64,000 bases of DNA from contig ONRL01000015.1 of assembly GCA_900320225.1 (NCBI GenBank), positions 24,383 through 88,382 on the forward strand, read 5' to 3'. The notes beneath the pieces are model-generated. The model worked only from the letters and a program-made list of their open reading frames with translations. It ran no database searches and was not told where the DNA came from. A program made the position numbers and the translations under genes. Position 1 is the first letter of the stretch. Each line of letters begins with the position of its first letter. The DNA comes from an uncultured Lentisphaerota bacterium (GTDB taxonomy: Bacteria > Verrucomicrobiota > Kiritimatiellia > RFP12 > UBA1067). Below are positions 47,171-64,000 of the stretch, in pieces.

Positions 47171-47422
47171 TCCCCGCGTGCCGCCGATTTGGTATACTTA
47201 TTTCGCCTCGTTCGGAAGGGTGGGGTAAGATAGCCCAGTGACGAGACCCGCCGCCGGGAGGGCCGACAGGATCGGCCAGCGAATTGCAAACCTTGTCTCT
47301 TGAGAATTTGGACCTTCGATACGCTGACACGTGGCTTGCAAGACGATACCCTTTTAACTTGGGGTGTCGCCTTGCCAGGTAGTTTAGCGGGCTGTCCAAG
47401 GCCTTCAAGAGTGCGTGGCATA

Positions 47423-47466
47423 GGCGCGCCCCTCTAACCAGAACAGAGAGGCGCGCCTTTCTGTTC
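47423..47466 (+). terminator. Rho-independent terminator-like hairpin (GGCGCGCCcCTCT-loop-AGAGaGGCGCGCC + TTTCTGTT); orphan, not associated with an annotated gene
   Basis: GC-rich 13-bp stem followed by T-tract, 570 nt downstream of the nearest + strand CDS and just before GC content drops. Confidence 0.4.
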
Positions 47467-47481
47467 GCAAACGAGAGACGG

Positions 47482-48843
47482 ATGAGCGAGCGGAGGAAAT
47501 GCGATGTTCGACATGACTCCTTGCCATGTGGCAAGGGGCAGGATGTCGTATGCCCTACGCATGTTGCTACTGCTGCCAGGTGTGATAAAAAGCGGATAAG
47601 GTTCATTGACCTCTTTGCGGGATGTGGTGGTTTGTCGGAAGGGTTTATTCAAGCTGGATATACGCCAGTCGCTCATGTGGAAATGAATGAGGCTGCCTGC
47701 TTCACGCTCAAGACCCGGATGGCCTATCATTGGCTGAAGAAGAACGGCAAGCTTGCCGACTATTGCGCTTACTTGAGAGGTGAAATTTCACGGGATGAGT
47801 TCTACAAAAAGATTCCTTCGCAAATTCTTGATTCGGTTATCAACGAAGAGGTTGGCGAAAAGACATTGGAGTCTCTGTTCGAAAAGATTGATGCGGCAAA
47901 GGGGGAGGAGACAATTGATCTGATCGTGGGCGGTCCGCCGTGTCAGGCCTATTCGCTGGTCGGACGGGCGAGGAAGTCTATGGAGGGGAATCCTCGCAAT
48001 TACCTCTTTCGGTATTACATTGAGTTCCTTAAGCACTACAAGCCGAAATGCTTTGTGTTTGAAAATGTCGTTGGTCTTCTATCCGCAGCAGACAAAGACG
48101 GCAACAAGTATCTTGATATGATGATTGACGGCTTCAAGGATGCAGGATACACCACTTCCTACGAGACCATCAATACGAAAACGCTTGGCATCCCACAGGC
48201 GCGTAAGAGGGTCATCATCATCGGCGTTCGCGGGAAGAAGAAGTTCAAGTACCCTAAGATGCGCGGCAGGCCATTCAAGTACACGGTCAATGAGATGTTG
48301 GATGGCTTGCCGGCGTTGCCCGCTGGCGGTATAGCGGAACCTTTTGACATCAAGGTGTCCGGTGATACTAAGGCGGCATTAAAGGCAACAGGTGTTCTGG
48401 ATGAAGCTATTCCGGTGACGCAGCATCAGGTTCGTCCGAACAATGCGAATGATTTGGAAATTTACAAGCGGGTTGTTGAGCTCTGGAACAAGGAGCATAA
48501 GCGACTGAGCTATGACACCTTGCCGGCAAGATTGCAAACCCATACAAACCGCAAGACTTTCAAGGATCGGTTTAAGGTCGTGGCGAGTGATGAGAAGGTC
48601 TGTCACACGGTTGTTGCACACATTCACAAGGACGGTCATTACTATATCCATCCTGACATCGAACAGAATCGTTCGATTTCGGTTCGCGAGGCCGCACGCT
48701 TGCAGACCTTTCCGGACAACTATTATTTCGAGAGCAGTTCGAAACGTCCCGGACGCGCCGCACCCTATCGTCAGATCGGCAACGCCGTTCCGGTGATGTT
48801 TGCGAAGAAGATTGCGGAAGCAATGAGAGGCTTGTTGAAGTGA
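47482..48843 (+). CDS. dcm: DNA (cytosine-5)-methyltransferase
   Basis: motif I FIDLFAGCGG, motif IV GGPPCQAYS, motif VI FVFENVVGL, motif X RQIGNAVPV. Confidence 0.9.
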   Translation: MSERRKCDVRHDSLPCGKGQDVVCPTHVATAARCDKKRIRFIDLFAGCGGLSEGFIQAGYTPVAHVEMNEAACFTLKTRMAYHWLKKNGKLADYCAYLRGEISRDEFYKKIPSQILDSVINEEVGEKTLESLFEKIDAAKGEETIDLIVGGPPCQAYSLVGRARKSMEGNPRNYLFRYYIEFLKHYKPKCFVFENVVGLLSAADKDGNKYLDMMIDGFKDAGYTTSYETINTKTLGIPQARKRVIIIGVRGKKKFKYPKMRGRPFKYTVNEMLDGLPALPAGGIAEPFDIKVSGDTKAALKATGVLDEAIPVTQHQVRPNNANDLEIYKRVVELWNKEHKRLSYDTLPARLQTHTNRKTFKDRFKVVASDEKVCHTVVAHIHKDGHYYIHPDIEQNRSISVREAARLQTFPDNYYFESSSKRPGRAAPYRQIGNAVPVMFAKKIAEAMRGLLK

Positions 48844-50948
48844 AAAAGGAACGGATTGCATTTAAGACGCGTGCAAGATTGCTTTGCCAGCTTGGTGAGC
48901 AACTCATCAAGTCTGAAGACATTGCCTTATTGGAATTGATAAAGAATTCCTATGATGCGGATGCGACATATTGCAATGTGCTGATGGAGAACGTTGCGGA
49001 TCCGAAAAATGGACGCATTGTTATTGATGATGATGGTTGTGGAATGAGCGCAGAACGTATTCGCCATACTTGGTTGGAGATCGGCACGAACTTCAAGGAG
49101 AGCCTTGCGGCGGATGAAGCGACCAAGAGGACTCCGAAGTTCAAGCGGATGCGCCTGGGAGAAAAGGGGATTGGGCGTTTCGGTGTGCATCGACTCGGGC
49201 ATAAAATTGATGTATATAGCAAGTCTGCGGATTCGCGGCTGGAAGCGCATTTGGCTATTGATTGGCGAAGTGCTGAGAAAGCGGAAATGATTGAGGATGT
49301 GCCGGTTTCTCTCACGGAGGATATTCCGCATTATTTCAAGGGAAAGAAAACCGGAACGCTTATCGTCATTACCAATTTGAAGGGTGAATGGACGCGAAAG
49401 ATGGCGCGAGACGTTGCACGGGCTATTGCGACGCTTAATTCTCCATTTGAGGAACAGGGAGAGTTTGTTCCGACGCTGAAGTTCACGGGACAAAGAGGCG
49501 AGGGCAAGTGGATTGACGGCATTGTTACATTCGATGAGATTCGTGCTAAGAGTCTCGGGTCGTTCGAAATTATGCTGAGGGGGAATCGAATTAAGAGCTT
49601 TGAGTATCATTTCACGCCGTGGAAGGTTATGGACAAGCTTCAGCCCCGTATGGTGAAGTGGGACTCGAAACATACCGAAGCGCGTTTGATTACGGAGGAT
49701 GATGAAGAGATCGATTTGTCCGAGATCGGAGAGGTGAGTTTCAAGGGGCTTGTCTTTGATTTGGATACAAAGATCCTGAAGCTTGGAATCCAAGATGTTG
49801 TGGGCTTCAAGGGTTATCTTCAGGCCAATGGTGGTGTCCGAGTTTACCGCGATAATATGCGGGTTCTGAATTACGGAGAGCCGGATGACGATTGGCTCGA
49901 CTTGAATTTTCGGCGCGTGAACCAGCCGACGCGCAAGGTAAGCTCAAATGTAATCATTGCCGCAGTCGGCCTTTCGCGTGAAAGCAGTGGTGCGTTGCGG
50001 GAAAAAGCGAATCGCGAGGGCTTTCTGAAGAACGCAGCATTCATGAAGCTTCGGAATGCCATCTTGTACGCGCTCAGCAAAGTTGAGCTTGAACGCAGCG
50101 TTGATAAAGATAGTATTCGCGCGGCTTATGGGAAGAAGGCTGAGATTAAAAATCGTCATGTGACGATGGATGACTTGCGGGCGGATGTCGAGACTTACGT
50201 CAAGAACAAGGTTGCGCGGAAGAAGATGTTGCAATGTATCGACCGTGTAGAGGATCAGTTTGAGGAATTTGCCGATTCTTTGATCAAGAGTGCAGGGGCG
50301 GGCCTAAACTTGTCGATGGTCATCCATCAAATGGAGAAAATCATCAAGAACGTTAAGGCCATGCTACGCAAACGAGGGCACGAGTCCGATGTGGCAAAGC
50401 AAATCGATTCACTGGCATTGCTGATTGAAGGATACAGCATCCTCATCCGTGAGTCTGATCGCAAGGTGCGCAATCTCGATGAGATTGTTGAACAGTCTGT
50501 GTATAATGTCGGATTTAGGTTGTCTGCGCATAAGATTGATCTCGTGGATGCGTATAAAAAGCGTGGAAAATGTCTGGCCTTGTGTACGGAAAACCATGCC
50601 ATTAACGCAATGCTGAACCTTTTCGACAATTCGATTTGGTGGCTGGGCTATTCGAAAACCGAATCACCGAAGATTTATGTGGATATCGTTGAATCGAAGT
50701 TGTATAAGGATTCGATTGCGATTGTTGTTGCTGATAATGGGCCGGGGTTCTCACGGGATCCGGAGGAGATGATCAAGCCGTTTGTCACTTCCAAACCTAA
50801 TGGCATGGGCATTGGGTTGCATTTGACGAATGAGATAATGTTGTCTTTGGGCGGGAAACTCGATTTTCCTGCAGCGAAGGATGTTGGCGTTCCAAAGGCA
50901 TTTGCCAATGGCGCCATAGTTGCCTTGGTGTTTCCGAAGGAGGCCTAA
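48840..50948 (+). CDS. MORC-like GHKL-superfamily ATPase (HATPase_c_3) large protein, 702 aa
   Basis: Bergerat ATP-binding motifs LELIKNSYDADATYCNV...VIDDDGCGMS...GEKGIGRFG. GTGA overlap with dcm stop, so translationally coupled. C-terminal ~400 aa unassigned. Confidence 0.7.
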   Translation: MKKERIAFKTRARLLCQLGEQLIKSEDIALLELIKNSYDADATYCNVLMENVADPKNGRIVIDDDGCGMSAERIRHTWLEIGTNFKESLAADEATKRTPKFKRMRLGEKGIGRFGVHRLGHKIDVYSKSADSRLEAHLAIDWRSAEKAEMIEDVPVSLTEDIPHYFKGKKTGTLIVITNLKGEWTRKMARDVARAIATLNSPFEEQGEFVPTLKFTGQRGEGKWIDGIVTFDEIRAKSLGSFEIMLRGNRIKSFEYHFTPWKVMDKLQPRMVKWDSKHTEARLITEDDEEIDLSEIGEVSFKGLVFDLDTKILKLGIQDVVGFKGYLQANGGVRVYRDNMRVLNYGEPDDDWLDLNFRRVNQPTRKVSSNVIIAAVGLSRESSGALREKANREGFLKNAAFMKLRNAILYALSKVELERSVDKDSIRAAYGKKAEIKNRHVTMDDLRADVETYVKNKVARKKMLQCIDRVEDQFEEFADSLIKSAGAGLNLSMVIHQMEKIIKNVKAMLRKRGHESDVAKQIDSLALLIEGYSILIRESDRKVRNLDEIVEQSVYNVGFRLSAHKIDLVDAYKKRGKCLALCTENHAINAMLNLFDNSIWWLGYSKTESPKIYVDIVESKLYKDSIAIVVADNGPGFSRDPEEMIKPFVTSKPNGMGIGLHLTNEIMLSLGGKLDFPAAKDVGVPKAFANGAIVALVFPKEA

Positions 50949-50949
50949 G

Positions 50950-52260
50950 ATGGAATTGCCACAGAACGCGCGTGTTGCCATCGTCGATAATGTGTATGGC
51001 GAGGTGGAAGGGCTGATGGAGGCGCTTGCATCAAAAGGAGTGCCTGTTGTTTACTATCAGGGACAGAAGAAATTTCCAAAGCTGCCTTTGTCTGGCATTC
51101 GTTTATTGTTTCTTGATTTAGAGCTAGATGGCCTTGAGGGGCAGTCTGATAAGGCCAAAACGGCGACTGCGGCTGCAAATGCATCCACTTTAATCGCACC
51201 TGGTAATGGCCCGGTTGTGATTGTGCTTTGGACTAAGCACAGCGGTAAAGGTGTCGTGGACCGGTTTCGTGGTTATCTGAAGGGTCATATGACAAATCCT
51301 TACTTTGTTGTGTGCATGGATAAGGCGAGTTGTCAGGACAAGGCTGGTAAGTTTTCTACGGCACGAATCAAACGGAACCTTTCCCTGAAGTTGGCGGGGG
51401 CAAATGTTATTGGACTGCACACGACGTGGGAAAATGCGCTTTTCAAGGGCTCTGTGAAGTTGGCAGATCGTGTAGCTGCCATCGCGTCCGCAGATGAGGA
51501 CTGGCAGATCGTGATCTCACGTATGTTTTATAAGCTTTATAAGGCGAATAGCGAGAAGGTCGAGCTTAAAACGCTGAAAGAACAGTTCTTAAGTGCTTGT
51601 TCATTGTATGGTGCGGGGTTGCTGAATGCGATTAACTTCGAATTGTCTCGTTCTTCGTTGTCTTGCGGCAAGAGGTTTTCCTTGGTGAAGGAGAAACTTG
51701 CCGGAGACAGAGAGGCGAGGTTGAATGGATTGCTGAATGCTTTCCTTTATTACGACAAAGACCGAGCCGATCCCAATGTGCCAGGGACTGTATATGCGGT
51801 TCGTTCTGGTGGTGCGGACATTAAGTGTGGCATTGTGGCAGATTTCTTTGTGGAGAAATCGGCGCAGAAAGTGATTCGGAGCAAGGTCGCAAAAGATGTT
51901 CGTCTCTGTAAGATTGTTGTAACGCCATCTTGTGATTGCTCACAGAAAAAGGAGTTTCGATCTGGAGGTGGAAAAAAGTCGAAAACCTATGACCGAGTCG
52001 TATGGGCGCTGCTGGTGAATCGAGCCATGGGTGCGGAGTACATTGAACGTAAATACCGCAAGACCAGATGCTATTTGCTGGAGGGCTTTGAGTATGACGG
52101 CGGCATGTACGATCTGCTGATTGATCTCGACACATTGGGTTTTGAGGTCCTTGACCTCAAGAAACAAAGTCGCCTGTTTACTCTAACATCGATGGTGCTG
52201 GCCGATGTTCAGTCCAAATTGGCGAATCAGCTGAATCGCATAGGCATTGTATCGGTATGA
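50950..52260 (+). CDS. hypothetical protein with N-terminal receiver-like (CheY-fold-like) region; C-terminal part unassigned
   Basis: ARVAIVDNVYGEVEGLMEALASKGVPVVYY...IRLLFLDLELDG pattern of alternating beta/alpha with an acidic pocket. 1-nt gap to upstream stop; ATGA overlap with downstream start. Confidence 0.45.
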   Translation: MELPQNARVAIVDNVYGEVEGLMEALASKGVPVVYYQGQKKFPKLPLSGIRLLFLDLELDGLEGQSDKAKTATAAANASTLIAPGNGPVVIVLWTKHSGKGVVDRFRGYLKGHMTNPYFVVCMDKASCQDKAGKFSTARIKRNLSLKLAGANVIGLHTTWENALFKGSVKLADRVAAIASADEDWQIVISRMFYKLYKANSEKVELKTLKEQFLSACSLYGAGLLNAINFELSRSSLSCGKRFSLVKEKLAGDREARLNGLLNAFLYYDKDRADPNVPGTVYAVRSGGADIKCGIVADFFVEKSAQKVIRSKVAKDVRLCKIVVTPSCDCSQKKEFRSGGGKKSKTYDRVVWALLVNRAMGAEYIERKYRKTRCYLLEGFEYDGGMYDLLIDLDTLGFEVLDLKKQSRLFTLTSMVLADVQSKLANQLNRIGIVSV

Positions 52261-53132
52261 ATATGCGTTGTTGTCGATACATGAAGTTTGGTTACGCGAA
52301 TGCGTCTTTGAGGGATAACTTCTTCAGAGTTAGCGGTCCGCTGGATTTTAATGATCCATTCGAATGCAGAGGATGCTATATTCATTTTGATGAGGCGTTG
52401 CGAAAGTATGTTCATCAGAACTTTGAGAGATTGAGGTTTGAGTCTATACGTCGAACTAATTCAACGACGCCGGAACTTCAAGCAAGGTTTACGGAAGAGT
52501 TCCTGTTTAAGACATACTTTGATTCAGCATCCCGATCGCTTGACAGTTCTTGGATTAACGCTGTTAATGAAACGGTTTTGATGTTGTGCTTTGTCAAGGA
52601 GCGAGGGTTGAAGCCCACCTCTGACGTTTTGTTCTGGTCGCATTACGCGGATTCTGGCAAGGGTGTCCGTATTGTGTTTGACTTGCCCGAAAGACCACGG
52701 GGGGGCGTTTATTATATGAAGGAAGTTGAGTATTGTGAGAAGGTGCCAGCATTTGACTGTCGGAAGATGGATGCTTGGCTTCAAGGGAAAGAATTTCAGG
52801 ATTATTTGGAGCGTATTTCACATGTGAAGGGGAAGGCTTGGGAATATGAGAATGAAATCCGAATGATTATACCACGGCGCATTCCTGAGCAGATGAAGCG
52901 AGTGCCGTTTGCTCATTTGTGTCCTCGTGAGAAAGACGGGGTAACACATTATTTTGTGCGAATTAATTACGATGCGATTCGGCGCATAGATTTTGGACCG
53001 CATGTTGATTTGAAACAGGCAGTGCGGTTAATTGAAGACCTGAAGCACGAAAAAGGTACTGGGCACATAGCATTCTGGCAAGCAACGTTGGGCTCAGGAT
53101 CATACACGTACATTTATCAGAAAGTGGCATAA
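52257..53132 (+). CDS. DUF2971 family protein
   Basis: N-terminal MKFGYANASLRDNFFRVSGPLDFNDPFE matches the DUF2971 signature (...FNDPFE); overlaps upstream stop (ATGA). Confidence 0.6.
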   Translation: MNMRCCRYMKFGYANASLRDNFFRVSGPLDFNDPFECRGCYIHFDEALRKYVHQNFERLRFESIRRTNSTTPELQARFTEEFLFKTYFDSASRSLDSSWINAVNETVLMLCFVKERGLKPTSDVLFWSHYADSGKGVRIVFDLPERPRGGVYYMKEVEYCEKVPAFDCRKMDAWLQGKEFQDYLERISHVKGKAWEYENEIRMIIPRRIPEQMKRVPFAHLCPREKDGVTHYFVRINYDAIRRIDFGPHVDLKQAVRLIEDLKHEKGTGHIAFWQATLGSGSYTYIYQKVA

Positions 53133-53186: not shown

Positions 53187-53735
53187 ATGGCGATATGCAT
53201 CAATAAATTAAAATCCTCTCAGGTCCTTGACGACTGTCAAAGGTCGTTGGATTTGTTGGAGAATGTGCCGGATGGGGACAAGCAGTTGTTCCGCATCTAC
53301 TGGACATTCTGCTTGGTAGCGTTACGCAGTGTTGAAGATGCCTTGATAAAAAATGATGCAAAGAGGTATCCAGAAATGATGGCGCCGTTAAAAGAGAGGC
53401 ACAATCAGCTTATGGCGCTTAAAACAAAATACCCGGACAATATAAAGTACGAAGAGTGCGATAGTGACGATTATTTAATCTACCACCGTCTTATACGCGG
53501 TGAGCGTAATTCTGCGGTCCATGAAGCGGCTCAAGCTTATGTAGATGGTATGTGGTCTATGGTTGCTGATAAAGGCCTTGCCAATTGGGGTAATACTTAT
53601 CTGCCGATGTGGGATTTTGACAAATGGGGACTCGATGACTGTAGGGATTGGATGCAAAGAGGGATAGATTGGTGGAGAAAAGAGATAGAATCCATTGCGA
53701 CTAAAGCCATTGAAGCACAAGGGAAAGAAAAATGA
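53187..53735 (+). CDS. hypothetical protein, Trp-rich
   Basis: 182-aa ORF 55 nt downstream of the DUF2971 gene, same strand; no recognisable motifs. Confidence 0.4.
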   Translation: MAICINKLKSSQVLDDCQRSLDLLENVPDGDKQLFRIYWTFCLVALRSVEDALIKNDAKRYPEMMAPLKERHNQLMALKTKYPDNIKYEECDSDDYLIYHRLIRGERNSAVHEAAQAYVDGMWSMVADKGLANWGNTYLPMWDFDKWGLDDCRDWMQRGIDWWRKEIESIATKAIEAQGKEK

Positions 53736-56485: not shown

Positions 56486-56504
56486 TCGGAGACTTCCTGC
56501 GGTA

Positions 56505-58589
56505 ATGTCTGAAACTGTCTACACATATACGCATGGCGATGTCTTTACGCTGAAGGTGATGGGCCGAAACGCCGGCCGATACGAGGCGTACTGCAAGCGC
56601 ATCGGCGTGGAAGAAGGCTCTGACGAGAGCCGTGTGGACATATCTTCTCCCAACGGAGTGGAGCAGATGGAGCCGCCCTTCTTCGAGACACGCTATTTCT
56701 TGCGGTGTGACTTCAAAGATGCGTCTATCCGCGACGCAGTGTTCTTCCATAAGATGGCCAGCGTTTCGGAGGCGTTCGACTTTGACGGCAAAACGCTCGT
56801 GGGTGTACTTGATTTCGTGAACGCTCCGGGCAAGTTCCACTTTGAGATAGTCTGGTATCGCGGCGGCGTTCGCGAATCGGCGGCATTTGACTGGATAGTT
56901 GTGTCTGAGAAGCTTAACGTCCAAAGTGATTACAAAGAAATCGTCACGACTATCGAGGAGAATGCGCCTGGGTTGGTGCGGGCGTTTCTTGCGAAGTCAA
57001 AGGGCGCGGCGGGGCTTATCCGTCGCGACGACACCAATGACGCAATTTGGGCGGATATTTTCAACGAGATCGGCGACCGTTATCAGAGAGCGTGCGAGTG
57101 GATCGTGAACAGGCCGCACCTCAAGTACATTTCGGAAGTCGAGTATCGGCGAGCAGGACTGGTCAAGCGATGGACGCCGGGCTTGGTCAACAGTTATGCG
57201 ACCATGGGCAAGGGGCGGCGAGCGGTTGCTCTTTTCAGGACGGAACACATATCGCCGCAGGTTGATACGGTAGAGAATAGGTTCGTCAAGTTCACCTTGC
57301 GGAGTGTCGTTGCAAGGTTGGAAAAATTCGCGTCTGTCTGTGAGGGGCACAAGACGGTCAGCGAGGTGTTCGTAAAGGACCTGCGGGCGCGGGCGGCGAG
57401 ACTTGCCAAGACGATGCGCAATCCTTTTTTCGTCGGCGTGGGACATTTCACGGGTTTGCGTCAAGAGAGCATGGTTCTGCAGCGGCGGCAGGGATATGCG
57501 GACATCTATGCGACATGGTTGATGCTCAAGCATACTCTCGATACAACGCAAACGGGTCTGGCAGTTGGACACAGGCCGATCAGCGCGCTCTACGAGTTCT
57601 GGTGTTTTCTGCGCATGGCAGATTTGCTGGAGAAGGACTTCGGATTTGGACGCCCGGAAGGTATGATAGACGGGGCTAAGGTCTATGACGACCTCTTCGA
57701 AGAACCGGACCCTGACAAGATTGACACCACGACGCTCTCTGCACTGACGTACAAGTTTCCCGAAAAAGATGGGGTTTCCATTAAACTACTGTATCAGCAG
57801 AACTACGGCAAGGAGACTGTCGATGGAGATTTGGCTTACTATAATCCGCAACGGCCTGACATTGTGCTAGTGATTGAACGCGGGAAGGATGTGTTCACTT
57901 ATCTGTTCGACGCCAAATACCGCATTGATGAGCGTGGTGGGAAGGATGCTTCCCCAGCTGAGCCGATCAACGACATGCATCGTTACAGAGATGCGATTTT
58001 GTATCGTTCACAAGAGGATGACCGTAAGTTGTCTCGGCAGATCGTTGGCGCGTATGTGCTCTATCCCGGCCGGCCTCTGCCACAGAGCTACAACTACGCG
58101 GAACTGATCAAAAACGAGAACATCGGCGCCATCCCTCTTCTGCCAGGCGAGGATGGCGGGAGCGCACTAAAGTCATTCATTGGCGAAATTCTCAGTAAGA
58201 AGACCCCGGAATCGCACCTTTCCGCCGACATCCCGACTCGCGGCACCACGGTGGTCGTCGGGAAGGACGAGGGCGTATTTCTTGAAAATGAAGTCGTGTA
58301 CGGGACATACGCGGCAGGGCAGCTTGATTGGATTCTTGAGAAGCACATGTACAATCTGCCGGTGGAAGAGTCTGAGAAGTTTGGCATCGTGGATATGGCG
58401 ACGGCCGAGCAGAAGAAAATTCTTTATCTTGTTGCTTTTCGTGGAACCGGTAGTCACCGTGTTTTCAGGCTTCTGCCCGGTGTGCGTAAAGTGACGCCGA
58501 ATGACTTGTGGAAAATGGGATATCCTAGGCAATGTCGCTATGACGAATACTGGTTGTTTAAGTTAGGCGAAGAACTAGGGCTAAGGTAG
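56505..58589 (+). CDS. mcrC: McrC-like partner nuclease (PD-(D/E)xK), enlarged 694-aa variant
   Basis: PD-(D/E)xK core RPDIVLVIE...LFDAKYR near C-terminus; 20-nt gap after McrB-like gene. Confidence 0.6.
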   Translation: MSETVYTYTHGDVFTLKVMGRNAGRYEAYCKRIGVEEGSDESRVDISSPNGVEQMEPPFFETRYFLRCDFKDASIRDAVFFHKMASVSEAFDFDGKTLVGVLDFVNAPGKFHFEIVWYRGGVRESAAFDWIVVSEKLNVQSDYKEIVTTIEENAPGLVRAFLAKSKGAAGLIRRDDTNDAIWADIFNEIGDRYQRACEWIVNRPHLKYISEVEYRRAGLVKRWTPGLVNSYATMGKGRRAVALFRTEHISPQVDTVENRFVKFTLRSVVARLEKFASVCEGHKTVSEVFVKDLRARAARLAKTMRNPFFVGVGHFTGLRQESMVLQRRQGYADIYATWLMLKHTLDTTQTGLAVGHRPISALYEFWCFLRMADLLEKDFGFGRPEGMIDGAKVYDDLFEEPDPDKIDTTTLSALTYKFPEKDGVSIKLLYQQNYGKETVDGDLAYYNPQRPDIVLVIERGKDVFTYLFDAKYRIDERGGKDASPAEPINDMHRYRDAILYRSQEDDRKLSRQIVGAYVLYPGRPLPQSYNYAELIKNENIGAIPLLPGEDGGSALKSFIGEILSKKTPESHLSADIPTRGTTVVVGKDEGVFLENEVVYGTYAAGQLDWILEKHMYNLPVEESEKFGIVDMATAEQKKILYLVAFRGTGSHRVFRLLPGVRKVTPNDLWKMGYPRQCRYDEYWLFKLGEELGLR

Positions 58590-58606
58590 TGGGAGATTGA
58601 GGCGCC

Positions 58607-58684
58607 ATGGGACTCGTCAAGACCAGAAGACTTGTGGCAATGCGGAAGCAGTTACGCCCCCTGTCAGGGTTGCAGCAAGAATGA
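58607..58684 (+). CDS. small ORF (25 aa, MGLVKTRRLVAMRKQLRPLSGLQQE), paralog of 61961-62104
   Basis: GGGAG RBS; first 15 residues conserved with the second copy despite synonymous DNA divergence. Confidence 0.35.
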   Translation: MGLVKTRRLVAMRKQLRPLSGLQQE

Positions 58685-58731: not shown

Positions 58732-60630
58732 ATGAAAATCATTTATACATACATTGCAGATTTCCCGCCTTTCAAGAATGCGGAAATGAATTTCGTATCA
58801 GATTATAGATGTAATTTCAATGGTGAGAAGTTAAGAATAAAACATTCGAAAGTCTTGCCCAAAGGGTTCTTTTCGCATGATGACCGATTGTGTGTGTCCG
58901 CAGTAGTGGGCCCAAATGGAGCGGGAAAGACTTCTCTCATCCGTTTCTTGAGATCACTCATGTATCCTGTGCAAAAGCAAGAATTCGTTCTTGTTTTGGA
59001 GGCAAAAGGAGATATAATTGTTTACTATAACTTAAACGGCGGAAGAATCCAAGTTGAGGGAGAGGGATGTAAAGTAAAATCCGTCAATAATCGTTACGAG
59101 AATACTGAATTTATGCAGGATGCCATTTCGACTTGCTTCAATGTTGTGTACTATTCGCCGCACTATTCGTTGTCTGTACCTTTCCGATTTACAAATGACG
59201 ATTTTGTAAACCTCTCTACGACATATCTTTTGAACAATACTATGGATGGTTCTTCTAGTCAGGCCAGATGTGTCAGTTCGTCAATCTTTATTGCAGAAGA
59301 ATTTTATCGTCTTGTCCGTTTCTATGAAGCATGTAAAGATATGTCTAATGTCGTTGAGCAAGTTCCGAAGGGTGTCGCATTCGTACCAGACACTCAAACA
59401 TTGGAATTTATTTTTCAATATTATTCTGAACTGCTTAATAAGGAGAAAGTTCGTATCAAGGAGATTCGTAAAGGTATTGTTGTTGGTGAAAGGGAACTTA
59501 CTAATAATGAAATGCAGCGTATAGAGACGATGCTGTCTTTTCTTGGATTTGATTTTGACGATGCCTTTATGTGTGTGTTCCAGTGTTTTGTGGCGATTAT
59601 TTGGCAAAGGAAGATATTCAATGATAAGTTTCTTAATGGAAAGGAATACGGATGTCTTTTGCTTGATTTTTGTGCGTCATTAATTGATTCAGACAATATG
59701 GACAAAAGAACCATTCGTAGTAAAGTCATTAACTTTTTGAAATTGAACAAGCCAGAACAAATTGGGAAGCTAGAATATTTGAATGAGGATGCAAGTAGTA
59801 TTAAGGAAGAAAATCCTTTATTCGCATTTTTTAAAATCCTTAGTGACTTAACATCTCACAGGGGTGGCGAAGGAGAAGTTTACCTGCAAATGCCGTGGAA
59901 CAAATTAATGAAGAACCTAGAGTTTGTAAAAGAACTGTATGGGTGCACGACTGCGATCGGGGCATTTGTTGAGTGGCGTTTTGATCCACCAATGTCATCT
60001 GGTCAATATACTTTGTATTCTTTCTATGCTCGCCTATACGAGTATTTCGTTAATATTAGAGACTGTGTTGCTGGGTACGACGGAAGTGACTTCTCGCATG
60101 AATGGGCTTTTCACATGGAGTCTGGCTGGATTGTGATACTGGATGAAGTAGAGGTGACTCTACACCCAGAATGGCAACGGACGATAGTATCGAATGTTTT
60201 GCATGTGTTTAAGGAATTCTTTAAGGGGTTTAATGTACACCTAATCTTTGCAACGCATTCGCCGATATTGCTGTCGGATGTGCCGGCTGGCAATGTGGTA
60301 TTACTTGATAAAGGCAGGGTGATTAACGGACAAACTAAAGACGGAGAGGAATTCAAGCCTTTCGGCTTTGGTGCGAACATTTATGACTTGTATCGCCATT
60401 CGTTCTTTCTAAAGAATGGCGCCGTAGGGTTATTCGCGCGAAAGAAGATAGATGATGTGGTAAGAAAAATATGCGAGTTACTTGAACCATCGAAGAAGAG
60501 CAAAAAGGAACCCGAAGATAAGTTTAATTATGATGAAGCGAACAAGATTTCCAATTTGGTTGCAGATCCTATTGTCAGGAAATATCTCAAGTCTGTAATA
60601 CCATTAGCGAAGGAACGGGCAAATGCGTAA
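58732..60630 (+). CDS. ABC/SMC-like AAA ATPase (AAA_15/AAA_21 type), Septu PtuA-like
   Basis: Walker A VVGPNGAGKTSL, Walker B/D-loop IVILDEVEVTLHPEWQ, H-loop ATHSP; low GC. Confidence 0.6.
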   Translation: MKIIYTYIADFPPFKNAEMNFVSDYRCNFNGEKLRIKHSKVLPKGFFSHDDRLCVSAVVGPNGAGKTSLIRFLRSLMYPVQKQEFVLVLEAKGDIIVYYNLNGGRIQVEGEGCKVKSVNNRYENTEFMQDAISTCFNVVYYSPHYSLSVPFRFTNDDFVNLSTTYLLNNTMDGSSSQARCVSSSIFIAEEFYRLVRFYEACKDMSNVVEQVPKGVAFVPDTQTLEFIFQYYSELLNKEKVRIKEIRKGIVVGERELTNNEMQRIETMLSFLGFDFDDAFMCVFQCFVAIIWQRKIFNDKFLNGKEYGCLLLDFCASLIDSDNMDKRTIRSKVINFLKLNKPEQIGKLEYLNEDASSIKEENPLFAFFKILSDLTSHRGGEGEVYLQMPWNKLMKNLEFVKELYGCTTAIGAFVEWRFDPPMSSGQYTLYSFYARLYEYFVNIRDCVAGYDGSDFSHEWAFHMESGWIVILDEVEVTLHPEWQRTIVSNVLHVFKEFFKGFNVHLIFATHSPILLSDVPAGNVVLLDKGRVINGQTKDGEEFKPFGFGANIYDLYRHSFFLKNGAVGLFARKKIDDVVRKICELLEPSKKSKKEPEDKFNYDEANKISNLVADPIVRKYLKSVIPLAKERANA

Positions 60631-61786
60631 ACTCGTGATAAATGATGACGATCTAGAGCTGCATAAGGACACCTATTCAACCCCAATCGAGGATATCCTT
60701 GGTTTGCTTGCCAAAGGGGATACTGTGAAGAAAGTTGGGAAAGCGGAAGACGGGAAACTGACAGACATCGATTGGCTATCGGCCAAAACCCCGGAGGAAC
60801 AAGATTTCTATAAAGGAATTCTTGAAAAGTACCAGGAAAAGAACTTTCTTACGACGGAGTTGGACGGCCTAGTTAAATTATGCAAAGAGTTTGACAAGCT
60901 GTACGAACCTTTTCAGAAGGAAAAGCTCGTAGAAATCAAAAATAATTTAAAGGAGATATTTAACTATGAAAAATTTGGAGCAGGACAAAAGCTGGTGGTA
61001 AAAACGATAAATAATGTTCAGTGTTATTCATGGACCAATTGCACCGAATCTTGGAGTGCTTGGCATTTTATCAAACACCTGAATGTCAGAACGTGTTGTT
61101 ATTGTAACGCCGAAACTATTTTCGCATTGTTGCTAAACCAGCCATGTCCTGGAGTTGAAGAAAAACGTTCAAATAGTAAGGCGAAGAAAGAAGATTACAA
61201 GAGGTCTGCTCTTGACCATTATATTGGTCATTCAGAGTATCCGGCTTTTGGATTGTCATTGTATAACCTTGTGCCAGCTTGCACTAGATGCAACACGAAT
61301 ATTCGAGGTGCAAAAGTCTTGGATTATCAAAGCAATATTCATCCATACGAAGAGTCCTTTGATGATTTCTTCAGGTTTAAATACTTCGTGAAGAAGACAG
61401 GCGTGGATTTCCAAGCGTTAACCGAAGACGATATAGGTCTAATTGTTTCGCAACTTGATAAGGACGGTCACATTATAAACATAGATAAAAGAGGAATGAA
61501 CACAGCGAAGTTCTTTCATTTGAAAGAAGTGTATAATCAACTCCATCGTAGCGAAGCAATTGACACGATTCGAAGATATACATTGATTCCAGAAGCACGG
61601 CGAAAAGAACTTGAACAACACTATCCAAATATTGGGCGGGTTGTCCTAGAGCGAATGCTTTGGGGAGTGGATTGTGATCGTAATAATATCAATCAATACC
61701 GCCTAGGTAAGTTGACGCTTGATTTGTTGGAACAGTTGGGTGCGACTTCGCAAGACGAACTTGATCGGATTTGGCAAAAATGGTGA
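60623..61786 (+). CDS. HNH endonuclease domain protein, Septu PtuB-like partner
   Basis: RTCCYCN...DHYIGHSEYP...YNLVPACTRCN (HNH/His-Me finger with two Cys pairs); 8-nt overlap with the ATPase gene. Confidence 0.55.
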   Translation: MRKLVINDDDLELHKDTYSTPIEDILGLLAKGDTVKKVGKAEDGKLTDIDWLSAKTPEEQDFYKGILEKYQEKNFLTTELDGLVKLCKEFDKLYEPFQKEKLVEIKNNLKEIFNYEKFGAGQKLVVKTINNVQCYSWTNCTESWSAWHFIKHLNVRTCCYCNAETIFALLLNQPCPGVEEKRSNSKAKKEDYKRSALDHYIGHSEYPAFGLSLYNLVPACTRCNTNIRGAKVLDYQSNIHPYEESFDDFFRFKYFVKKTGVDFQALTEDDIGLIVSQLDKDGHIINIDKRGMNTAKFFHLKEVYNQLHRSEAIDTIRRYTLIPEARRKELEQHYPNIGRVVLERMLWGVDCDRNNINQYRLGKLTLDLLEQLGATSQDELDRIWQKW

Positions 61787-61960
61787 GCTAACAGGTACGA
61801 GTCGCAAGCCCCATTGGTGGAGGAGCCCGCGAGGGGTGATCTCATTGGTGAGTAGGAGTGGTGGATTAGTCATGGCCATGCAACAGAAAGGCAACGAGAG
61901 ACGCAGAGGTAGCCCTCGTTGATATGGTAACACTGACACAGTAACGCGAGAGGTGAGATC

Positions 61961-62104
61961 ATGGGACTCGTGAAAACAAGAAGGCTGGCGGCGATGCAGA
62001 AGCAGCAGCGCGCGAAGGCGGGGATGAAGCCGCCGGCACCAAAACCTACGCGAATGAATGGTTGCAGGAACGCAACGAATTTCGAGTCAATGAAACGCGG
62101 TTAG
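61961..62104 (+). CDS. small ORF (47 aa, MGLVKTRRLAAMQKQQRAKAGMKPPAPKPTRMNGCRNATNFESMKRG), paralog of 58607-58684
   Basis: GAGAGGTGAG RBS; sits 13 nt upstream of the DUF262-HNH gene. Confidence 0.35.
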   Translation: MGLVKTRRLAAMQKQQRAKAGMKPPAPKPTRMNGCRNATNFESMKRG

Positions 62105-62117
62105 AAGGAGCAATGGC

Positions 62118-63458
62118 ATGAATCAAACTGTTCAACCGATCAATTCTCGTCCGATGACAAGGGTAGAATTCAATACGTTCACCATTCGCACGTTGGTCGG
62201 ATGGTACGAGCGGGGTTTGCTGAATCTTGAACCGGAGTTTCAGAGAAAGTCGGTCTGGAAGAAGCAGCAGCGATCTAGGTTGATGAATTCCATTCTGCAT
62301 GGCTATCCACTTCCGAATGTGGCGATCTACAAACGGTATGATGAGAAGCTCCACTGTGTCCGTTACGATGTGATTGACGGCAAGCAGCGCCTAGAGTCCA
62401 TCTTGCTTTTTCTTGGAAAACTTAGAGGCGAAGATTCGCGTTTTGAGGCGGCGTTTACAGATTGGCGTGACGGAAGGGAATATACCGTCAAGCAGTCTTG
62501 GCGAGACATGTGCCCCAAAAACCAGGGTCAAATCATGAGATTCAAAATACCGGCCGTCTGGGTTCAGGGTGAGTTGCACGAGATACGTGAGATGTTTGTG
62601 CGAATCAATTCAACCGGCAAAGCACTGACTCATCAGGAAGTCCGCAACGCGAAGTACTTCAGTTCTGAATTCCTTCAGCGCATGATTCCCCTTGCCAGAC
62701 AGCTAAAGCGCAACTTCTTAGAAATGGGTGTCCTTTCTGAGAGTGAGATTCTTCGGATGAAGGATGTGGAATTTTGTTCGGAGCTGGTCCTTTCAGTCCT
62801 GCACGGAAACGTTCTCGACAAGAAACGCGCGCTTGATCAGTCAATGACGGATGGGTTCGTTGACATGCGGAGACTTCCAAAGGCGATACGAGACGTGAAG
62901 GCGACGATCCGGTATCTGGCCAAGCTGCTGCCCGACATTCGCGCAACGCGGTTCAAGAAACTTGCGGACTTCTACACGCTCGTGGTCCTGTTCGCGCGTT
63001 ACTTGCGAGAGGGGAAGACGCTGCAGAATGCTAAGGCGAAACGCGAGGCGGGATATCTGCTTGAGCGGTTCGGCGTTCTGGCGGACAAGGCGTACAAGTC
63101 GATCAGCGAATTCGACCGAGAGGCGGAGATTGATCCAAATGCGTTGACGTACATCCAGACAGTTCGCGAGGGCGGCGACACTGCGGCACACCGTCGCGAG
63201 CGAGAGAGGATTGTGGAAAACATCTTGGAGAATGTCTTTGACCAGAAAGACCGCCATCGCACGTTCACAGAAGTTCAGCGGCGAATCATCTGGGCGAATA
63301 CGAAGCGCAAGAAGTGTTACAGGTGCGGGCGCGAGTTGAAATGGTCGAACTTCGAGATCGACCATGTCTATCCTTACAGCAAGGGCGGCAAGACAACGAT
63401 AGAGAACAGTGCAATCATCTGCAAGCGCTGCAATTGCAAGAAAGGCGCAAAGGTTTGA
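62118..63458 (+). CDS. DUF262 (ParB/GmrS-like NTPase) + C-terminal HNH/DUF1524-like nuclease: GmrSD/BrxU-family type IV restriction enzyme
   Basis: LEPEFQRKSVW and DGKQRLESI (DUF262 motifs); CYRCGRELKWSNFEIDHVYPYSKGGKTTIENSAIICKRCN (HNH). Confidence 0.7.
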   Translation: MNQTVQPINSRPMTRVEFNTFTIRTLVGWYERGLLNLEPEFQRKSVWKKQQRSRLMNSILHGYPLPNVAIYKRYDEKLHCVRYDVIDGKQRLESILLFLGKLRGEDSRFEAAFTDWRDGREYTVKQSWRDMCPKNQGQIMRFKIPAVWVQGELHEIREMFVRINSTGKALTHQEVRNAKYFSSEFLQRMIPLARQLKRNFLEMGVLSESEILRMKDVEFCSELVLSVLHGNVLDKKRALDQSMTDGFVDMRRLPKAIRDVKATIRYLAKLLPDIRATRFKKLADFYTLVVLFARYLREGKTLQNAKAKREAGYLLERFGVLADKAYKSISEFDREAEIDPNALTYIQTVREGGDTAAHRRERERIVENILENVFDQKDRHRTFTEVQRRIIWANTKRKKCYRCGRELKWSNFEIDHVYPYSKGGKTTIENSAIICKRCNCKKGAKV

Positions 63459-63515
63459 TGCTAGCACTCGGCTTCTGCCCCGGACGGGGGACGGATTGTA
63501 AAAGGAGGGAATAGG

Positions 63516-64000
63516 ATGAAGGTAATTCTGAGCAGAAAAGGTTTTGACAGTGTCAATGGTAAGATGCCAAGTGCCATAATGCCGAACGGCGATGTCGTTT
63601 CTTTCCCGATTCCTTCAGGTGACAAGACCACATTTGACGACTTACGATATAGGGATGTCTCTTATAAGCAAATATTGGATTCTCTTGTACAAAAGAAATC
63701 TGGATGCAGGGATATTCCTTGGCGACATTGTCACATTGATCCGGATCTGGATAAGACGCGTTGGAAGAAAACACCCCATCATAATTGGAAGCCGGCTTTC
63801 GGCCCGTCATGGAACGTATGGCACTATCTGAAAGAGACGGTTGGGATTCAAAAGAATGATGTATTTCTTTTCTTTGGGACATTTCACTTTTTAACCCAGA
63901 AGGCGCCTAGAGGTTTCGAGTACGCCGCTCGAACCGGCGATTTCTTTCATGACTCGGACTTGCATCTCATCTGGGGATATTTGCAAGTCGGGAACATCAT
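63516..64000 (+). CDS. partial ORF (5' part only, runs off window); N-terminus MKVILSRKGFDSVNGKMPSAIMPNG resembles the Nmad3 (nucleotide-modification-associated domain 3) family, tentative
   Basis: AAAGGAGGG RBS 7 nt upstream; open for 161 codons to window end; family assignment from memory of the Nmad3 N-terminal signature, unverified. Confidence 0.35.
   Translation, partial: MKVILSRKGFDSVNGKMPSAIMPNGDVVSFPIPSGDKTTFDDLRYRDVSYKQILDSLVQKKSGCRDIPWRHCHIDPDLDKTRWKKTPHHNWKPAFGPSWNVWHYLKETVGIQKNDVFLFFGTFHFLTQKAPRGFEYAARTGDFFHDSDLHLIWGYLQVGNI

What the first reader, a model, noticed from the sequence alone, without database searches (positions are those of the whole stretch)
47200..64000. Lower-GC defence island begins right after the repeat cluster; no integrase or tRNA at the junction
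GC falls from ~65% to ~45-50% from about 47.45 kb and stays low to the window end, across at least five defence-type modules. The junction carries the BIME cluster, an orphan terminator-like hairpin (47423-47466) and then the island. The tRNA genes in the window (32.5 kb) are far from it. Acquisition therefore appears to be repeat-mediated rather than via a tRNA-targeting integrase, or the mobilisation genes lie beyond the window.
Basis: seen in the sequence. Interest (0 to 1): 0.6.

Follow-up and report, generated by a model that had tools for sequence, protein, structure and literature searches.

The report
Integrase-free defence-gene hotspot with cassette-boundary repeats
The low-GC stretch is a real anti-phage defence island in a rumen Kiritimatiellae genome, sitting at a conserved chromosomal hotspot with no integrase or tRNA in the DNA seen, and its gene cassettes appear to be swapped between strains at two conserved non-coding boundary sequences that I could not find described.

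Summary
GC is 0.646 up to 42.8 kb and 0.477 from 47.48 kb to the window end, with change points at 44.74 and 47.58 kb. The low-GC part holds only defence genes: a Dcm/HATPase_c_3/446-aa/DUF2971 operon, an McrBC-like pair, PDC-M62 A/B and GmrSD-HNH plus Nmad3. Sibling contigs add AbiE and ZacAB over a further 10.6 kb. No tRNA lies nearer than 32.7 kb, and no integrase or transposase was seen.

The BIME cluster is one of three host-type REP/CA-rich units that bracket HipBA and a DUF4062 gene. I found no evidence that it mediated acquisition.

The "orphan hairpin" ends a conserved, structured ~270-nt leader with its own promoter. In four other contigs this leader sits 10-25 nt upstream of a different defence operon. 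In a near-identical strain the crossover lies inside it.

Further right, cassettes are separated by a conserved ~100-nt element that starts a small ORF (MGLVKTRRLAAMQKQQRAKAG...). The protein database holds about 1200 variants of this ORF, and the element occurs next to defence genes in more than 120 rumen contigs. Strain-level cassette gain and loss has its breakpoints inside it.

Best reading: a chromosomal hotspot whose cassettes turn over by recombination at conserved boundary elements. The right end in this strain was not seen.

The parts
41993..42820 (+). Fer4-nitroreductase gene, the last host-GC gene before the variable region (GC 0.673, GC3 0.87).
   Evidence: Pfam annotation and composition. 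Orthologues at 73-94% identity occur in Kiritimatiellae/Lentisphaerae MAGs, with different genes downstream.
42832..43017 (+). REP-type hairpin cluster 1, followed by a promoter-like site at 43055-43083.
43114..44612 (+). HipB (43114-43416) and HipA (43413-44612) toxin-antitoxin cassette at near-host GC.
   Evidence: HipA_C at 2.4e-47; HTH_31 for the upstream gene.
44616..44790 (+). REP cluster 2 plus a C/A-rich tract, followed by an extended -10 motif (TGGTATGAT).
45059..46855 (+). DUF4062 / HATPase_c_4 / wHTH protein (Schlafen/AlbA_2-type region shared with pAgo-associated proteins), intermediate GC 0.557.
46880..47170 (+). REP/BIME cluster 3 plus a (CCAA)n microsatellite at 47086-47162. This is the repeat cluster named in the finding.
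47190..47474 (+). Promoter (extended -10 TGGTATACT, 47190-47198) and a conserved, structured ~270-nt leader or sRNA (47203-47474). It ends in the hairpin 47423-47457 with a U tract to 47465. I read it as the left anchor of the low-GC array.
   Evidence: Homologues in L071, L049, L023 and L086, each 10-25 nt upstream of a different defence operon. Fold z-scores -3.0 and -4.3. 73 consensus pairs, 6 with compensatory changes. No Rfam match. Crossover inside it in strain L008.
47482..53132 (+). Four-gene operon with overlapping or abutting genes: Dcm C5-methyltransferase (47482-48843), HATPase_c_3 protein with BbrUII/HgiDII-like N-terminus (48840-50948), 446-aa protein of unknown family (50920-52260), and DUF2971/PDC-S31 (52257-53132).
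   Evidence: The same four-gene order, with variant proteins, occurs in strain L162.
53187..53735 (+). 182-aa protein with no family match. Two small called ORFs follow at 53979-54346.
54362..58589 (+). McrBC-like pair: AAA_5 GTPase-like protein (PDC-M26A, 54362-56485) and DUF2357/PDDEXK_7 nuclease (56505-58589). Strain breakpoint at 54713, where the N-terminal domain of the first protein is swapped.
58600..58676 (+). Degenerate copy of the MGLVK inter-cassette element (small ORF from 58607, 25 codons).
   Evidence: D19; nhmmer E = 3e-16.
58732..61786 (+). PDC-M62 A/B two-gene system: AAA_21/PtuA-like ATPase (58732-60630) and PtuB-like partner (60623-61786). GC 0.39-0.40.
61934..62104 (+). MGLVK inter-cassette element. 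The core is 61934-62045, with a strong SD and a small ORF at 61961-62104 (MGLVKTRRLAAMQKQQRAKAGMKPP...). The ORF stops 13 nt before the GmrSD start codon.
   Evidence: nhmmer E = 2e-27. One breakpoint of the GmrSD-Nmad3-160aa presence/absence polymorphism lies in this copy.
62118..64000 (+). GmrSD_N-HNH protein (62118-63458; NsnA / PD-T4-2_A-like) and Nmad3 protein (starts at 63516 and runs off the window).

Best explanation
The region from 47.48 kb to beyond the window end is the variable part of a chromosomal defence-gene hotspot in a rumen Kiritimatiellae bacterium.

The hotspot lies downstream of a Fer4-nitroreductase gene. It starts with two host-GC cassettes (HipBA and a DUF4062/Schlafen-like gene), each bracketed by ordinary host REP/CA-rich/promoter units.

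The low-GC part is a co-oriented array of defence operons. On the left it is anchored by a conserved promoter plus a structured ~270-nt leader that ends in a terminator-like hairpin directly before the first gene. In its right half the cassettes are separated by a conserved ~100-nt element that begins a short, translatable ORF (the MGLVK element).

Shown: cassettes are gained, lost and replaced between closely related strains, and the breakpoints I could map lie in the leader, in MGLVK copies, or once inside a defence gene.

Inferred: exchange is by recombination between these conserved sequences and incoming DNA from related strains, most simply homologous recombination, not by a tRNA-targeting integrase.

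Inferred: the leader drives, and perhaps gates by conditional termination, transcription into the array.
For: Composition step and defence gene content.

No tRNA or recombinase: no tRNA near the junction. No recombinase domain in about 40 kb of called genes around and beyond the island. No integrase or transposase family among the 25 most frequent Pfam families in three sets totalling 291 ORFs that neighbour MGLVK elements in other contigs.

Hotspot: relatives with 78-94% identical nitroreductase carry different defence or TA genes downstream, and L023 also has the leader followed by a GC drop.

Leader as anchor: it is conserved upstream of five different first genes. Strain L008 differs by 0.18% up to 47374, by 15% over 47375-47490, and is unrelated beyond.

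MGLVK element as junction: copies follow McrC, M62B, Nmad3, the 160-aa gene and AbiEii. Comparing L038 with L001, a 2.9-kb GmrSD-Nmad3-160aa block is present or absent with both breakpoints inside element copies. Neighbouring modules are 94%, 86% and 95% identical, so the array is mosaic. L062 lacks both M62AB and GmrSD, and there too the breakpoints lie at element copies.

Position of the element: its upstream neighbour is co-oriented in 103 of 123 cases, with a median of 68 nt from the stop codon to the small-ORF ATG.

Right ends without a recombinase: L037 shows element, then a HAD gene, with GC jumping to 0.66-0.72. L062 shows AbiE, then a Peptidase_C1 gene.

No plasmid or phage match to the island DNA, and no viral contig carries the element.
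Against: The right end of the island in this strain was not reached. All contigs carrying it stop within 10.6 kb of the window end, so a recombinase further right cannot be excluded.

Homologous and site-specific recombination are not distinguished. Only three or four junctions were mapped. The end points of partial element copies vary (+16, +24, about +45 and +68 from the ATG). That favours homologous or illegitimate events but does not prove them.

The left 11 kb of the low-GC part has no MGLVK element, so the element is not needed at every junction.

Synteny around the nitroreductase is also scrambled upstream, so "conserved hotspot" rests on few genomes.

The source of the low-GC cassettes is unknown. 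Transcription of the leader and translation of the small ORF are untested.
Confidence: 0.6

Rival explanations
1. This is a classical integrase-mediated genomic island, or tandem islands, inserted at the 3' end of a small RNA gene (the 47203-47474 element). The integrase gene lies at the far, unseen end.
For: The left junction abuts a structured, promoter- and terminator-bearing RNA-like gene. Non-coding RNA genes are common landing sites, and both P. aeruginosa core defence hotspots are flanked by a tRNA or tmRNA gene (PMC10250203). The right end in this strain was not seen.
Against: No recombinase in 27 kb of island sequence (47.5-74.2 kb equivalent) or at the right ends seen in L062 and L037. 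No second copy of the leader's 3' end was found as a direct repeat in the window or in sibling contigs. The crossover in L008 lies inside the leader with graded divergence, not at a sharp att core. Internal cassette-level polymorphism is not explained by this model.
Confidence: 0.15
2. This is an integron-like platform. A dedicated but unidentified site-specific recombinase captures cassettes at the MGLVK element (attC analogue) and at the leader (attI/Pc analogue).
For: The cassettes are co-oriented. A conserved element sits just 3' of each cassette (median 68 nt from stop codon to small-ORF ATG; 84% co-oriented). One promoter-bearing element lies at the 5' end of the array, and it co-occurs with MGLVK elements in the same orientation in L049, L071, L086 and the window. 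Defence cassettes are known in integrons (bioRxiv 10.1101/2024.07.02.601719; PMC12614218). Codons 13-25 of the element are conserved at all three codon positions, as a DNA site would be.
Against: No integrase in any annotated locus, and none among the frequent families in the censuses. The element has no hairpin potential on either strand (z = -0.24 and -0.31), unlike attC. Partial copies end at different positions. Cassettes are multi-gene, and at least one (AbiE) is preceded by a consensus promoter read directly from the sequence.
Confidence: 0.12
3. One reading: the island was acquired through the REP/BIME cluster at 46.9-47.2 kb, by recombination between REP copies or by a REP-associated transposase.
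For: REP/CA-rich units bracket HipBA and the DUF4062 gene, and an AbiEii cassette in relative L012. These units may therefore mark the boundaries of the host-GC cassettes.
Against: The same hairpins are dispersed in ordinary intergenic regions of the window. There are none inside the low-GC part. The mapped left breakpoint is 200-300 nt to the right of the cluster, inside the leader. No RAYT-type gene was seen in the annotated region, although I did not search for one specifically.
Confidence: 0.08
4. This is not a recent acquisition. The low GC reflects a long-resident, lineage-specific pool of defence genes kept AT-rich by their own evolutionary dynamics. The compositional step therefore says little about transfer.
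For: The same hotspot is occupied in species whose nitroreductase is 78% identical. The MGLVK element is itself GC-rich and was found only in rumen-type metagenome and MAG data. Cassette GC ranges widely, from 0.39 to 0.535.
Against: Near-identical strains differ in whole cassettes, and adjacent modules differ in divergence. This requires ongoing exchange.
Confidence: 0.05

Closest known systems
Core defence hotspots (cDHS1/cDHS2) of Pseudomonas aeruginosa and similar chromosomal defence islands (PMC10250203)
   Same: A fixed chromosomal site next to core genes. [quoted passage not shown]
   Different: There the flanking RNA is a tRNA-Pro or tmRNA gene, and the sites carry many integrases, ICEs and prophages. 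Here I found no tRNA or tmRNA and no mobility genes, and the array has its own conserved boundary sequences (leader and MGLVK element).
Integrons, sedentary chromosomal integrons and CALINs (attC arrays without an integrase)
   Same: Co-oriented cassettes, a conserved repeat at the 3' side of each cassette, one promoter-bearing platform at the 5' end, and defence genes as cargo.
   Different: No IntI. The repeat has no attC-type hairpin and instead shows coding-type third-position variation. Cassettes are large multi-gene operons. The attC covariance model was not available, so formal exclusion is incomplete.
Minimal mobile elements of Neisseria (definition quoted in PMC3082526; original papers by Saunders and Snyder 2002 and Snyder et al. 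2007 not read)
   Same: Different whole-gene cassettes found between conserved sequences in different strains, incorporated by homologous recombination without a dedicated recombinase.
   Different: There the anchors are two conserved genes and there is usually one cassette. Here the anchors are short non-coding or small-ORF elements repeated within a multi-cassette array. Competence of the host is unknown.
Orphan toxin/immunity arrays of CDI, Rhs and MafB loci (from my own knowledge)
   Same: Tandem cassettes, each preceded by a short conserved coding segment that gives homology for recombinational swapping.
   Different: There the conserved segment is the end of a large toxin gene, and recombination changes that toxin's C-terminus. 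Here the conserved segment starts a free-standing 25-88-codon ORF with no parent gene.
REP/BIME elements of Enterobacteria and Pseudomonas
   Same: The clusters at 42.8, 44.6 and 46.9 kb are imperfect palindromes in intergenic regions, present in several variants and dispersed across the window.
   Different: They are a host-wide feature. I found no evidence that they take part in building the low-GC array.

Membership tests
Defence island / chromosomal defence hotspot | Several recognised defence systems clustered together | tested here: met
   Dcm/REase-like operon, PDC-S31, McrBC-like PDC-M26A, PDC-M62 A/B and GmrSD/NsnA-like are in the window. AbiE and ZacAB lie just beyond it.
Defence island / chromosomal defence hotspot | Variable content between strains at a conserved chromosomal position | tested here: met
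   Three strain variants share 96-100% identical segments but differ in cassettes. Relatives carry other defence genes downstream of the same nitroreductase and leader. The right flank was seen only in the related contigs L062 and L037.
Defence island / chromosomal defence hotspot | Composition differs from the genome | tested here: met
   GC 0.477 against 0.646; GC3 0.40-0.66 against 0.71-0.87.
Integrase-mediated genomic island at a tRNA or tmRNA gene | A tRNA or tmRNA gene at one junction | tested here: not met
   ARAGORN and Rfam find only tRNA-Leu and tRNA-Gly at 32556-32727, about 15 kb from the junction.
Integrase-mediated genomic island at a tRNA or tmRNA gene | A tyrosine or serine recombinase gene within the island | tested here: not met
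   None among the Pfam hits for genes from 33.5 to about 74.2 kb in window-equivalent coordinates. The region beyond that was not seen.
Integrase-mediated genomic island at a tRNA or tmRNA gene | Direct repeat (att) of the left junction at the right junction | not testable with these tools
   The right end of this strain's island is on no retrievable contig. No second copy of the leader's 3' end was found in the held loci.
Integron / CALIN | IntI integrase next to the array | tested here: not met
   No Phage_integrase hit in any annotated locus.
Integron / CALIN | attC sites: imperfect palindromes that fold as hairpins on one strand | tested here: not met
   The MGLVK consensus folds no better than shuffles as RNA (z = -0.24) or as bottom-strand DNA (z = -0.31). 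The IntegronFinder attC model was not run.
Integron / CALIN | Co-oriented cassettes, each followed by the repeat | tested here: met
   103 of 123 upstream neighbours are co-oriented, with a median of 68 nt from stop codon to small-ORF ATG. This is a resemblance only.
REP/BIME | Short imperfect palindromes repeated in intergenic regions genome-wide | tested here: met
   GGGAGGGTCGCGC...GCGCGACC and GCCGCCATCTTGGCGGC hairpins occur at 11.7, 14.1, 28.4, 42.8-43.0, 44.6-44.7 and 46.9-47.1 kb, against about 0.0-0.1 expected by chance.
REP/BIME | Associated RAYT transposase in the genome | not tested
   No specific search was made, and only 64 kb of the genome is available.
Known RNA family (Rfam 15) for the 47203-47474 element | Score at or above a family's gathering threshold | tested here: not met
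   No hit at gathering thresholds. The best hits at E <= 10 are chance-level: 17 bits against a threshold of 50.

The most novel reading that the evidence does not exclude
Rumen Kiritimatiellae may have a distinct gene-cassette platform for defence systems. It would consist of one conserved promoter plus structured leader RNA at the head of the array, and a conserved ~100-nt element after each cassette. The first ~12 codons of that element (MGLVKTRRLAAM) are under peptide-level purifying selection, and its next ~13 codons are conserved as DNA. The element would act as the exchange site for cassettes, and possibly as a translated re-start signal for downstream genes. The system would be an integron-like solution without an integron integrase or attC hairpins.
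Probability: 0.25. Interest if true: 0.8.

Novelty: new variant of a known kind. Interest (0 to 1): 0.55.

Why it matters
Defence islands are usually explained by mobile elements landing at tRNA or tmRNA genes. How islands with no mobility genes are built and reshuffled is poorly understood.

This locus offers two short, conserved and easily searchable boundary sequences that mark the start of a defence array and the junctions between its cassettes. They occur in a poorly studied, uncultured gut and rumen lineage.

If the pattern holds, three things follow:
- The sequences give a direct handle for harvesting new defence cassettes from metagenomes, since anything between two MGLVK elements is a candidate.
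- They give a testable model for recombinase-free cassette exchange.
- They give a candidate regulatory RNA that may control a whole defence array.

Tried and rejected
1. MGLVK repeats as 5' fragments of a target gene left by tandem site-specific integrations. Rejected: all ~1200 database proteins with this N-terminus are 33-88 aa, and no full-length parent exists.

2. MGLVK element as attC. No fold signal on either strand.

3. Known RNA family for the leader or for the element. No Rfam hit.

4. Phage or plasmid origin. No megablast match for 47.2-64 kb in 50,697 phage or 72,556 plasmid records. The element pattern is absent from 2.9 million viral contigs.

5. Walking rightwards. The right end of this strain's island stays unknown.

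6. Using the nitroreductase as a synteny anchor. It works downstream, where the region is variable. Unexpectedly, synteny is also lost upstream, even at 94% identity.

7. The simple terminator scan missed the 47423 hairpin because its loop is 9 nt. ViennaRNA confirms the hairpin.

8. The 69- and 52-aa ORFs at 53979-54346 are not homologous to the similarly sized pair in L037.

9. Literature searches for Kiritimatiellae defence islands or conserved inter-cassette repeats found nothing relevant.

10. NCBIfam and precomputed Pfam give no family for the small ORF.

Full report
**Observation**

A 1-kb GC profile shows 0.56-0.73 up to 47 kb and 0.37-0.55 from 48 kb to the end.
- GC is 0.6455 for 1-42820, 0.5975 for 42821-47200 and 0.4768 for 47481-64000.
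- A likelihood change-point search gives 47280 for one break, and 44740 plus 47580 for two.
- GC3 falls from 0.71-0.87 (T2SS-like gene, TerB-DnaJ, nitroreductase, HipBA) to 0.69 (DUF4062 gene) and then to 0.40-0.66.
- The only tRNA genes are at 32556-32727.

The compositional claim, the position of the step and the absence of a nearby tRNA are therefore confirmed. One refinement is that the drop has two steps.

**Gene content**

All genes from 43 kb onward are on the + strand:
- HipB/HipA, 43114-44612.
- A DUF4062 / HATPase_c_4 / wHTH protein, 45059-46855.
- A four-gene operon with overlapping or abutting genes: Dcm (DrmMII-like, 1e-152), a HATPase_c_3 protein with a BbrUII/HgiDII-like N-terminus, a 446-aa unknown, and DUF2971/PDC-S31 (47482-53132).
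- A 182-aa unknown.
- An McrBC-like pair (PDC-M26A AAA_5 protein plus a DUF2357/PDDEXK_7 nuclease), 54362-58589.
- PDC-M62 A/B, 58732-61786.
- GmrSD_N-HNH (62118-63458) and Nmad3 from 63516.

Sibling metagenome contigs that carry exactly the same proteins extend 10.6 kb further. They add the rest of Nmad3, a 160-aa gene, AbiEi/AbiEii, two small genes, and ZacA with a split ZacB. No integrase, resolvase or transposase domain appears among the called genes from 33.5 kb to about 74.2 kb in window-equivalent coordinates.

**Host and hotspot**

The nitroreductase at 41993-42820 has 73-94% identical orthologues in rumen MAGs labelled Kiritimatiellae, Lentisphaerae or Verrucomicrobia. Downstream of it these relatives carry other accessory genes:
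- L012: NUDIX, HTH_36, AAA_14/DUF4143, AbiEii, HNH_2.
- L018: a HATPase_c_4 protein, Dcm, GmrSD.
- L022: HATPase_c_3 and Dcm.
- L023: a Dcm fusion.

Several MAG contigs end right after the nitroreductase, as expected next to a repetitive or variable region. The place is thus occupied by defence genes across species while the genes themselves differ. Synteny upstream of the nitroreductase is also not conserved, so the anchor is weak on that side.

**The BIME cluster**

The cluster at 46880-47170 is real, but it is one of three. The intergenic regions after the nitroreductase, after HipA and after the DUF4062 gene align with each other. Each has a GGGGCGAGGCGTCTCGCC hairpin, a CCGGGAGGGTCGCGC...GCGCGACC hairpin, a GCCGCCATCTTGGCGGCGC hairpin, a C/A-rich tract and a promoter-like motif.

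The same hairpins occur in ordinary intergenic regions at 11.7, 14.1 and 28.4 kb, where about 0.0-0.1 matches are expected by chance. None lies inside the low-GC part. They are a host-wide REP family and may bound the two host-GC cassettes, but no breakpoint was mapped to them.

**The "orphan" hairpin belongs to a conserved leader**

The stretch 47203-47474 follows an extended -10 motif (TGGTATACT, 47190-47198). It ends in the hairpin 47423-47457 plus UUUCUGUU, 16 nt before the Dcm start codon.

- It has homologues at 76-83% identity in L071, L049 and L023, and its 3' part occurs in L086.
- In each case it lies 10-25 nt upstream of the first gene of a different low-GC operon:
  - HATPase_c_3-Z1-DUF4420-AIPR-Dcm-SLFN helicase in L071.
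  - A 102-aa gene and a Dcm-like cluster in L049.
  - A Dcm fusion in L023.
  - A YhcG/DUF1016 nuclease followed by Dcm and McrBC-like genes in L086.
- It folds better than all 200 shuffles (z = -3.0; z = -4.3 for the L023 copy).
- RNAalifold gives 73 pairs, 6 of them with compensatory changes, but from only four distinct sequences.
- Rfam has no match.
- Strain L008 differs from the window at 9 of 4950 positions up to 47374, at 17 of 116 positions over 47375-47490, and is unrelated beyond that. This places a crossover inside the leader.

I read the leader as the conserved left anchor of the variable array and as its likely promoter and regulatory region. Its function as a conditional terminator is inference.

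**The inter-cassette element**

A direct repeat links 58606-58676 with 61960-62030 (D19). In the sibling contig L001 further copies follow Nmad3, the 160-aa gene and AbiEii, the last in two copies.

- Structure. The conserved core is about 100 nt. It has 27 nt with a strong Shine-Dalgarno sequence (GAGAGGTGAT), then the first ~25 codons of a small ORF, MGLVKTRRLAAMQKQQRAKAGMKPP..., after which the copies diverge.
- Not a gene fragment. My first idea was that these are 5' fragments of a target gene left by tandem integration. That failed: a profile search of 5.8 billion proteins returned 1199 hits, all 33-88 aa and none with a Pfam domain.
- Distribution.
- Position. The gene upstream is co-oriented in 103 of 123 cases and ends a median of 68 nt before the ATG. 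The next gene starts a median of 286 nt after the ATG.
- Neighbours. Pfam censuses of 86 upstream, 61 downstream and 144 further ORFs are dominated by defence families: NERD, helicases, Nmad3, DUF2357/PDDEXK_7, AbiEii, PLDc_2, Dcm, Macro, NYN, HNH and McrBC. No integrase or transposase family is among the 25 most frequent in any set. The downstream set also contains core-type genes such as GH43, TSP3 and HAD, as expected at the right border of an island.
- Coding signal. In 65 copies that were not selected by my search pattern, third codon positions of codons 3-11 vary in 14-61% of copies, apart from one invariant arginine codon at 7%. First and second positions vary in 0-10%, apart from synonymous Leu first-position changes and position +21 (17%). 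This points to purifying selection on the peptide. Codons 13-25 vary little at any position, which points to a DNA-level constraint.
- No structure. The element has no secondary-structure signal and no Rfam match.

**Breakpoints between strains**

- L001, L002 and L004 are 99.3% identical to the window from 54713 onward. Upstream they carry two further Dcm genes and a 913-aa McrB-like protein with a different N-terminus.
- L038 shares McrBC (94%), M62 (86%) and AbiE (95%) with L001 but lacks the 2.9-kb GmrSD-Nmad3-160aa block. Its single MGLVK element matches the copy after M62B on its left and a long-version copy on its right. The switch lies in the DNA-conserved part, about +36 to +68 from the ATG.
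- After AbiE, L038 and L001 diverge 16 nt into the next element.
- L062, from a 162-kb contig with McrBC 96-97% identical, goes from McrC through element copies straight to AbiE and then to a host-GC Peptidase_C1 gene.
- In L037 the island ends with cpYpsA, one element, and then HAD, YqeY and glycosyltransferase genes, with GC rising to 0.66-0.72.

Cassette gain and loss therefore has its ends in the conserved elements. The array is a mosaic of modules with different divergence, and the two right ends that could be seen carry no recombinase.

**Mechanism**

Shown:
- The composition step.
- The defence gene content.
- The absence of tRNA and recombinase genes in the sequence available.
- The conservation and position of the leader and of the MGLVK element.
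- The location of the breakpoints.

Inferred:
- Exchange happens by recombination between these conserved sequences in resident and incoming DNA. Homologous recombination is the simplest reading, because partial copies end at different positions and divergence is graded around the L008 crossover.
- The leader promotes, and may gate, transcription of the array.
- The small ORF is translated.

I put 0.6 on the hotspot-with-boundary-elements explanation, 0.15 on an unseen integrase acting at the RNA-like gene, 0.12 on an unknown site-specific system, 0.08 on the REP-mediated model as written, and 0.05 on long residence without transfer.

**Comparison with known systems**

- The closest match in kind is the core defence hotspot described in P. 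aeruginosa. It has fixed flanks, lower GC, variable defence content and a flanking non-coding RNA gene. Those sites, however, hold many mobile-element genes and a tRNA or tmRNA (PMC10250203).
- The closest match in proposed mechanism is the Neisseria minimal mobile element, in which cassettes between conserved sequences are exchanged by homologous recombination (definition quoted in PMC3082526).
- In architecture the array resembles an integron or CALIN, but it fails the two defining tests I could run: no IntI and no attC-type hairpin.
- I found no description of the MGLVK element or of the leader in Rfam, Pfam, NCBIfam or the searchable literature. That is absence of evidence within these libraries only.

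**Verdict**

The finding as written, a low-GC defence island without an integrase or tRNA at its junction, is correct and by itself ordinary. The proposed BIME-mediated acquisition is not supported. What raises the interest is the pair of conserved boundary elements and the direct evidence that cassette turnover happens at them. I rate this a new variant of a known kind, with interest 0.55.

Noticed in passing
L062 reverse strand about 3880-3960; L003 14778-14900; proteins P0031, P0036, P0059, P0070 and P0087: Some MGLVK element copies carry 27-66-bp palindromic mini-insertions (for example TCCACCTTCGCCAAGGCTACGGTGGA) at fixed points inside the small ORF. They look like a tiny hairpin-type mobile repeat that targets the element.
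   Followed up: partly
window 54362-54713, compared with L162 7240-9981 and L038 1903-4419: The McrB-like protein exists as 707-, 838- and 913-aa versions. They share the C-terminal ~590 residues (92-99% identical) but have unrelated N-terminal domains. This is a reader-domain swap with a sharp breakpoint at 54713. The 913-aa version follows two extra Dcm genes.
   Followed up: partly
window 61961-62118: The small ORF of the MGLVK element stops 13 nt before the GmrSD start codon, and the GmrSD Shine-Dalgarno sequence (AAGGAG) overlaps the ORF's stop codon. Translational coupling is possible here but is not general: the median distance from the ATG to the next gene is 286 nt.
   Followed up: partly
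L008 5067-5492: In a strain that is 99.8% identical up to the leader, the sequence after the leader has no long ORF and contains strong hairpins (GGTCGGATCC...GATCCGACC). It may be another non-coding RNA or the start of a different system. No match in any held locus.
   Followed up: no
L062 3106-5163 (minus strand) and L023 6060-7967: The Peptidase_C1-lectin gene that follows the island in L062 has a 75% identical orthologue about 2 kb upstream of the nitroreductase in L023. The two genes next to the island are thus on opposite sides in different lineages. Gene order around the hotspot is rearranged.
   Followed up: partly
window 44815-44890 compared with 47203-47250; L022 12620-12710; L023 15135-15223; L018 11784-11883: The first ~90 nt of the leader, including a REP-like CCGGGAGGGCCG...CGGCC hairpin, recur as separate partial copies, among them the 5' UTR of the DUF4062 gene. 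The leader may be built from a promoter-proximal module shared by several cassettes.
   Followed up: partly
L001 15045-15686 and L037 1893-2266: A small module is conserved between two otherwise different islands: a 69-78-aa protein (KKYF(I/V)LKLDSYEG...) followed by a short RadC/JAB-like C-terminal fragment.
   Followed up: no
L001 16920-18652; L062 5461-6269: ZacB is split into 308- and 269-aa ORFs. AbiEii in L062 is split into 118- and 138-aa ORFs. Some cassettes in these arrays are decaying.
   Followed up: no
window 4797-5294: Near-perfect 45- and 48-nt tandem repeats encode an (AEAKPAEKPAEPAPV)n-type low-complexity segment inside a large gene. Unrelated to the island.
   Followed up: no
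window 11138-11177, 15618-15649, 29263-29316, 44730-44785, 47086-47162: Short C/A-rich or C/T-rich periodic tracts (CCAA, GCACCCA, CCTTTGTCC) recur in intergenic regions, often just upstream of promoter-like motifs. This may be a lineage-specific feature of intergenic architecture.
   Followed up: no
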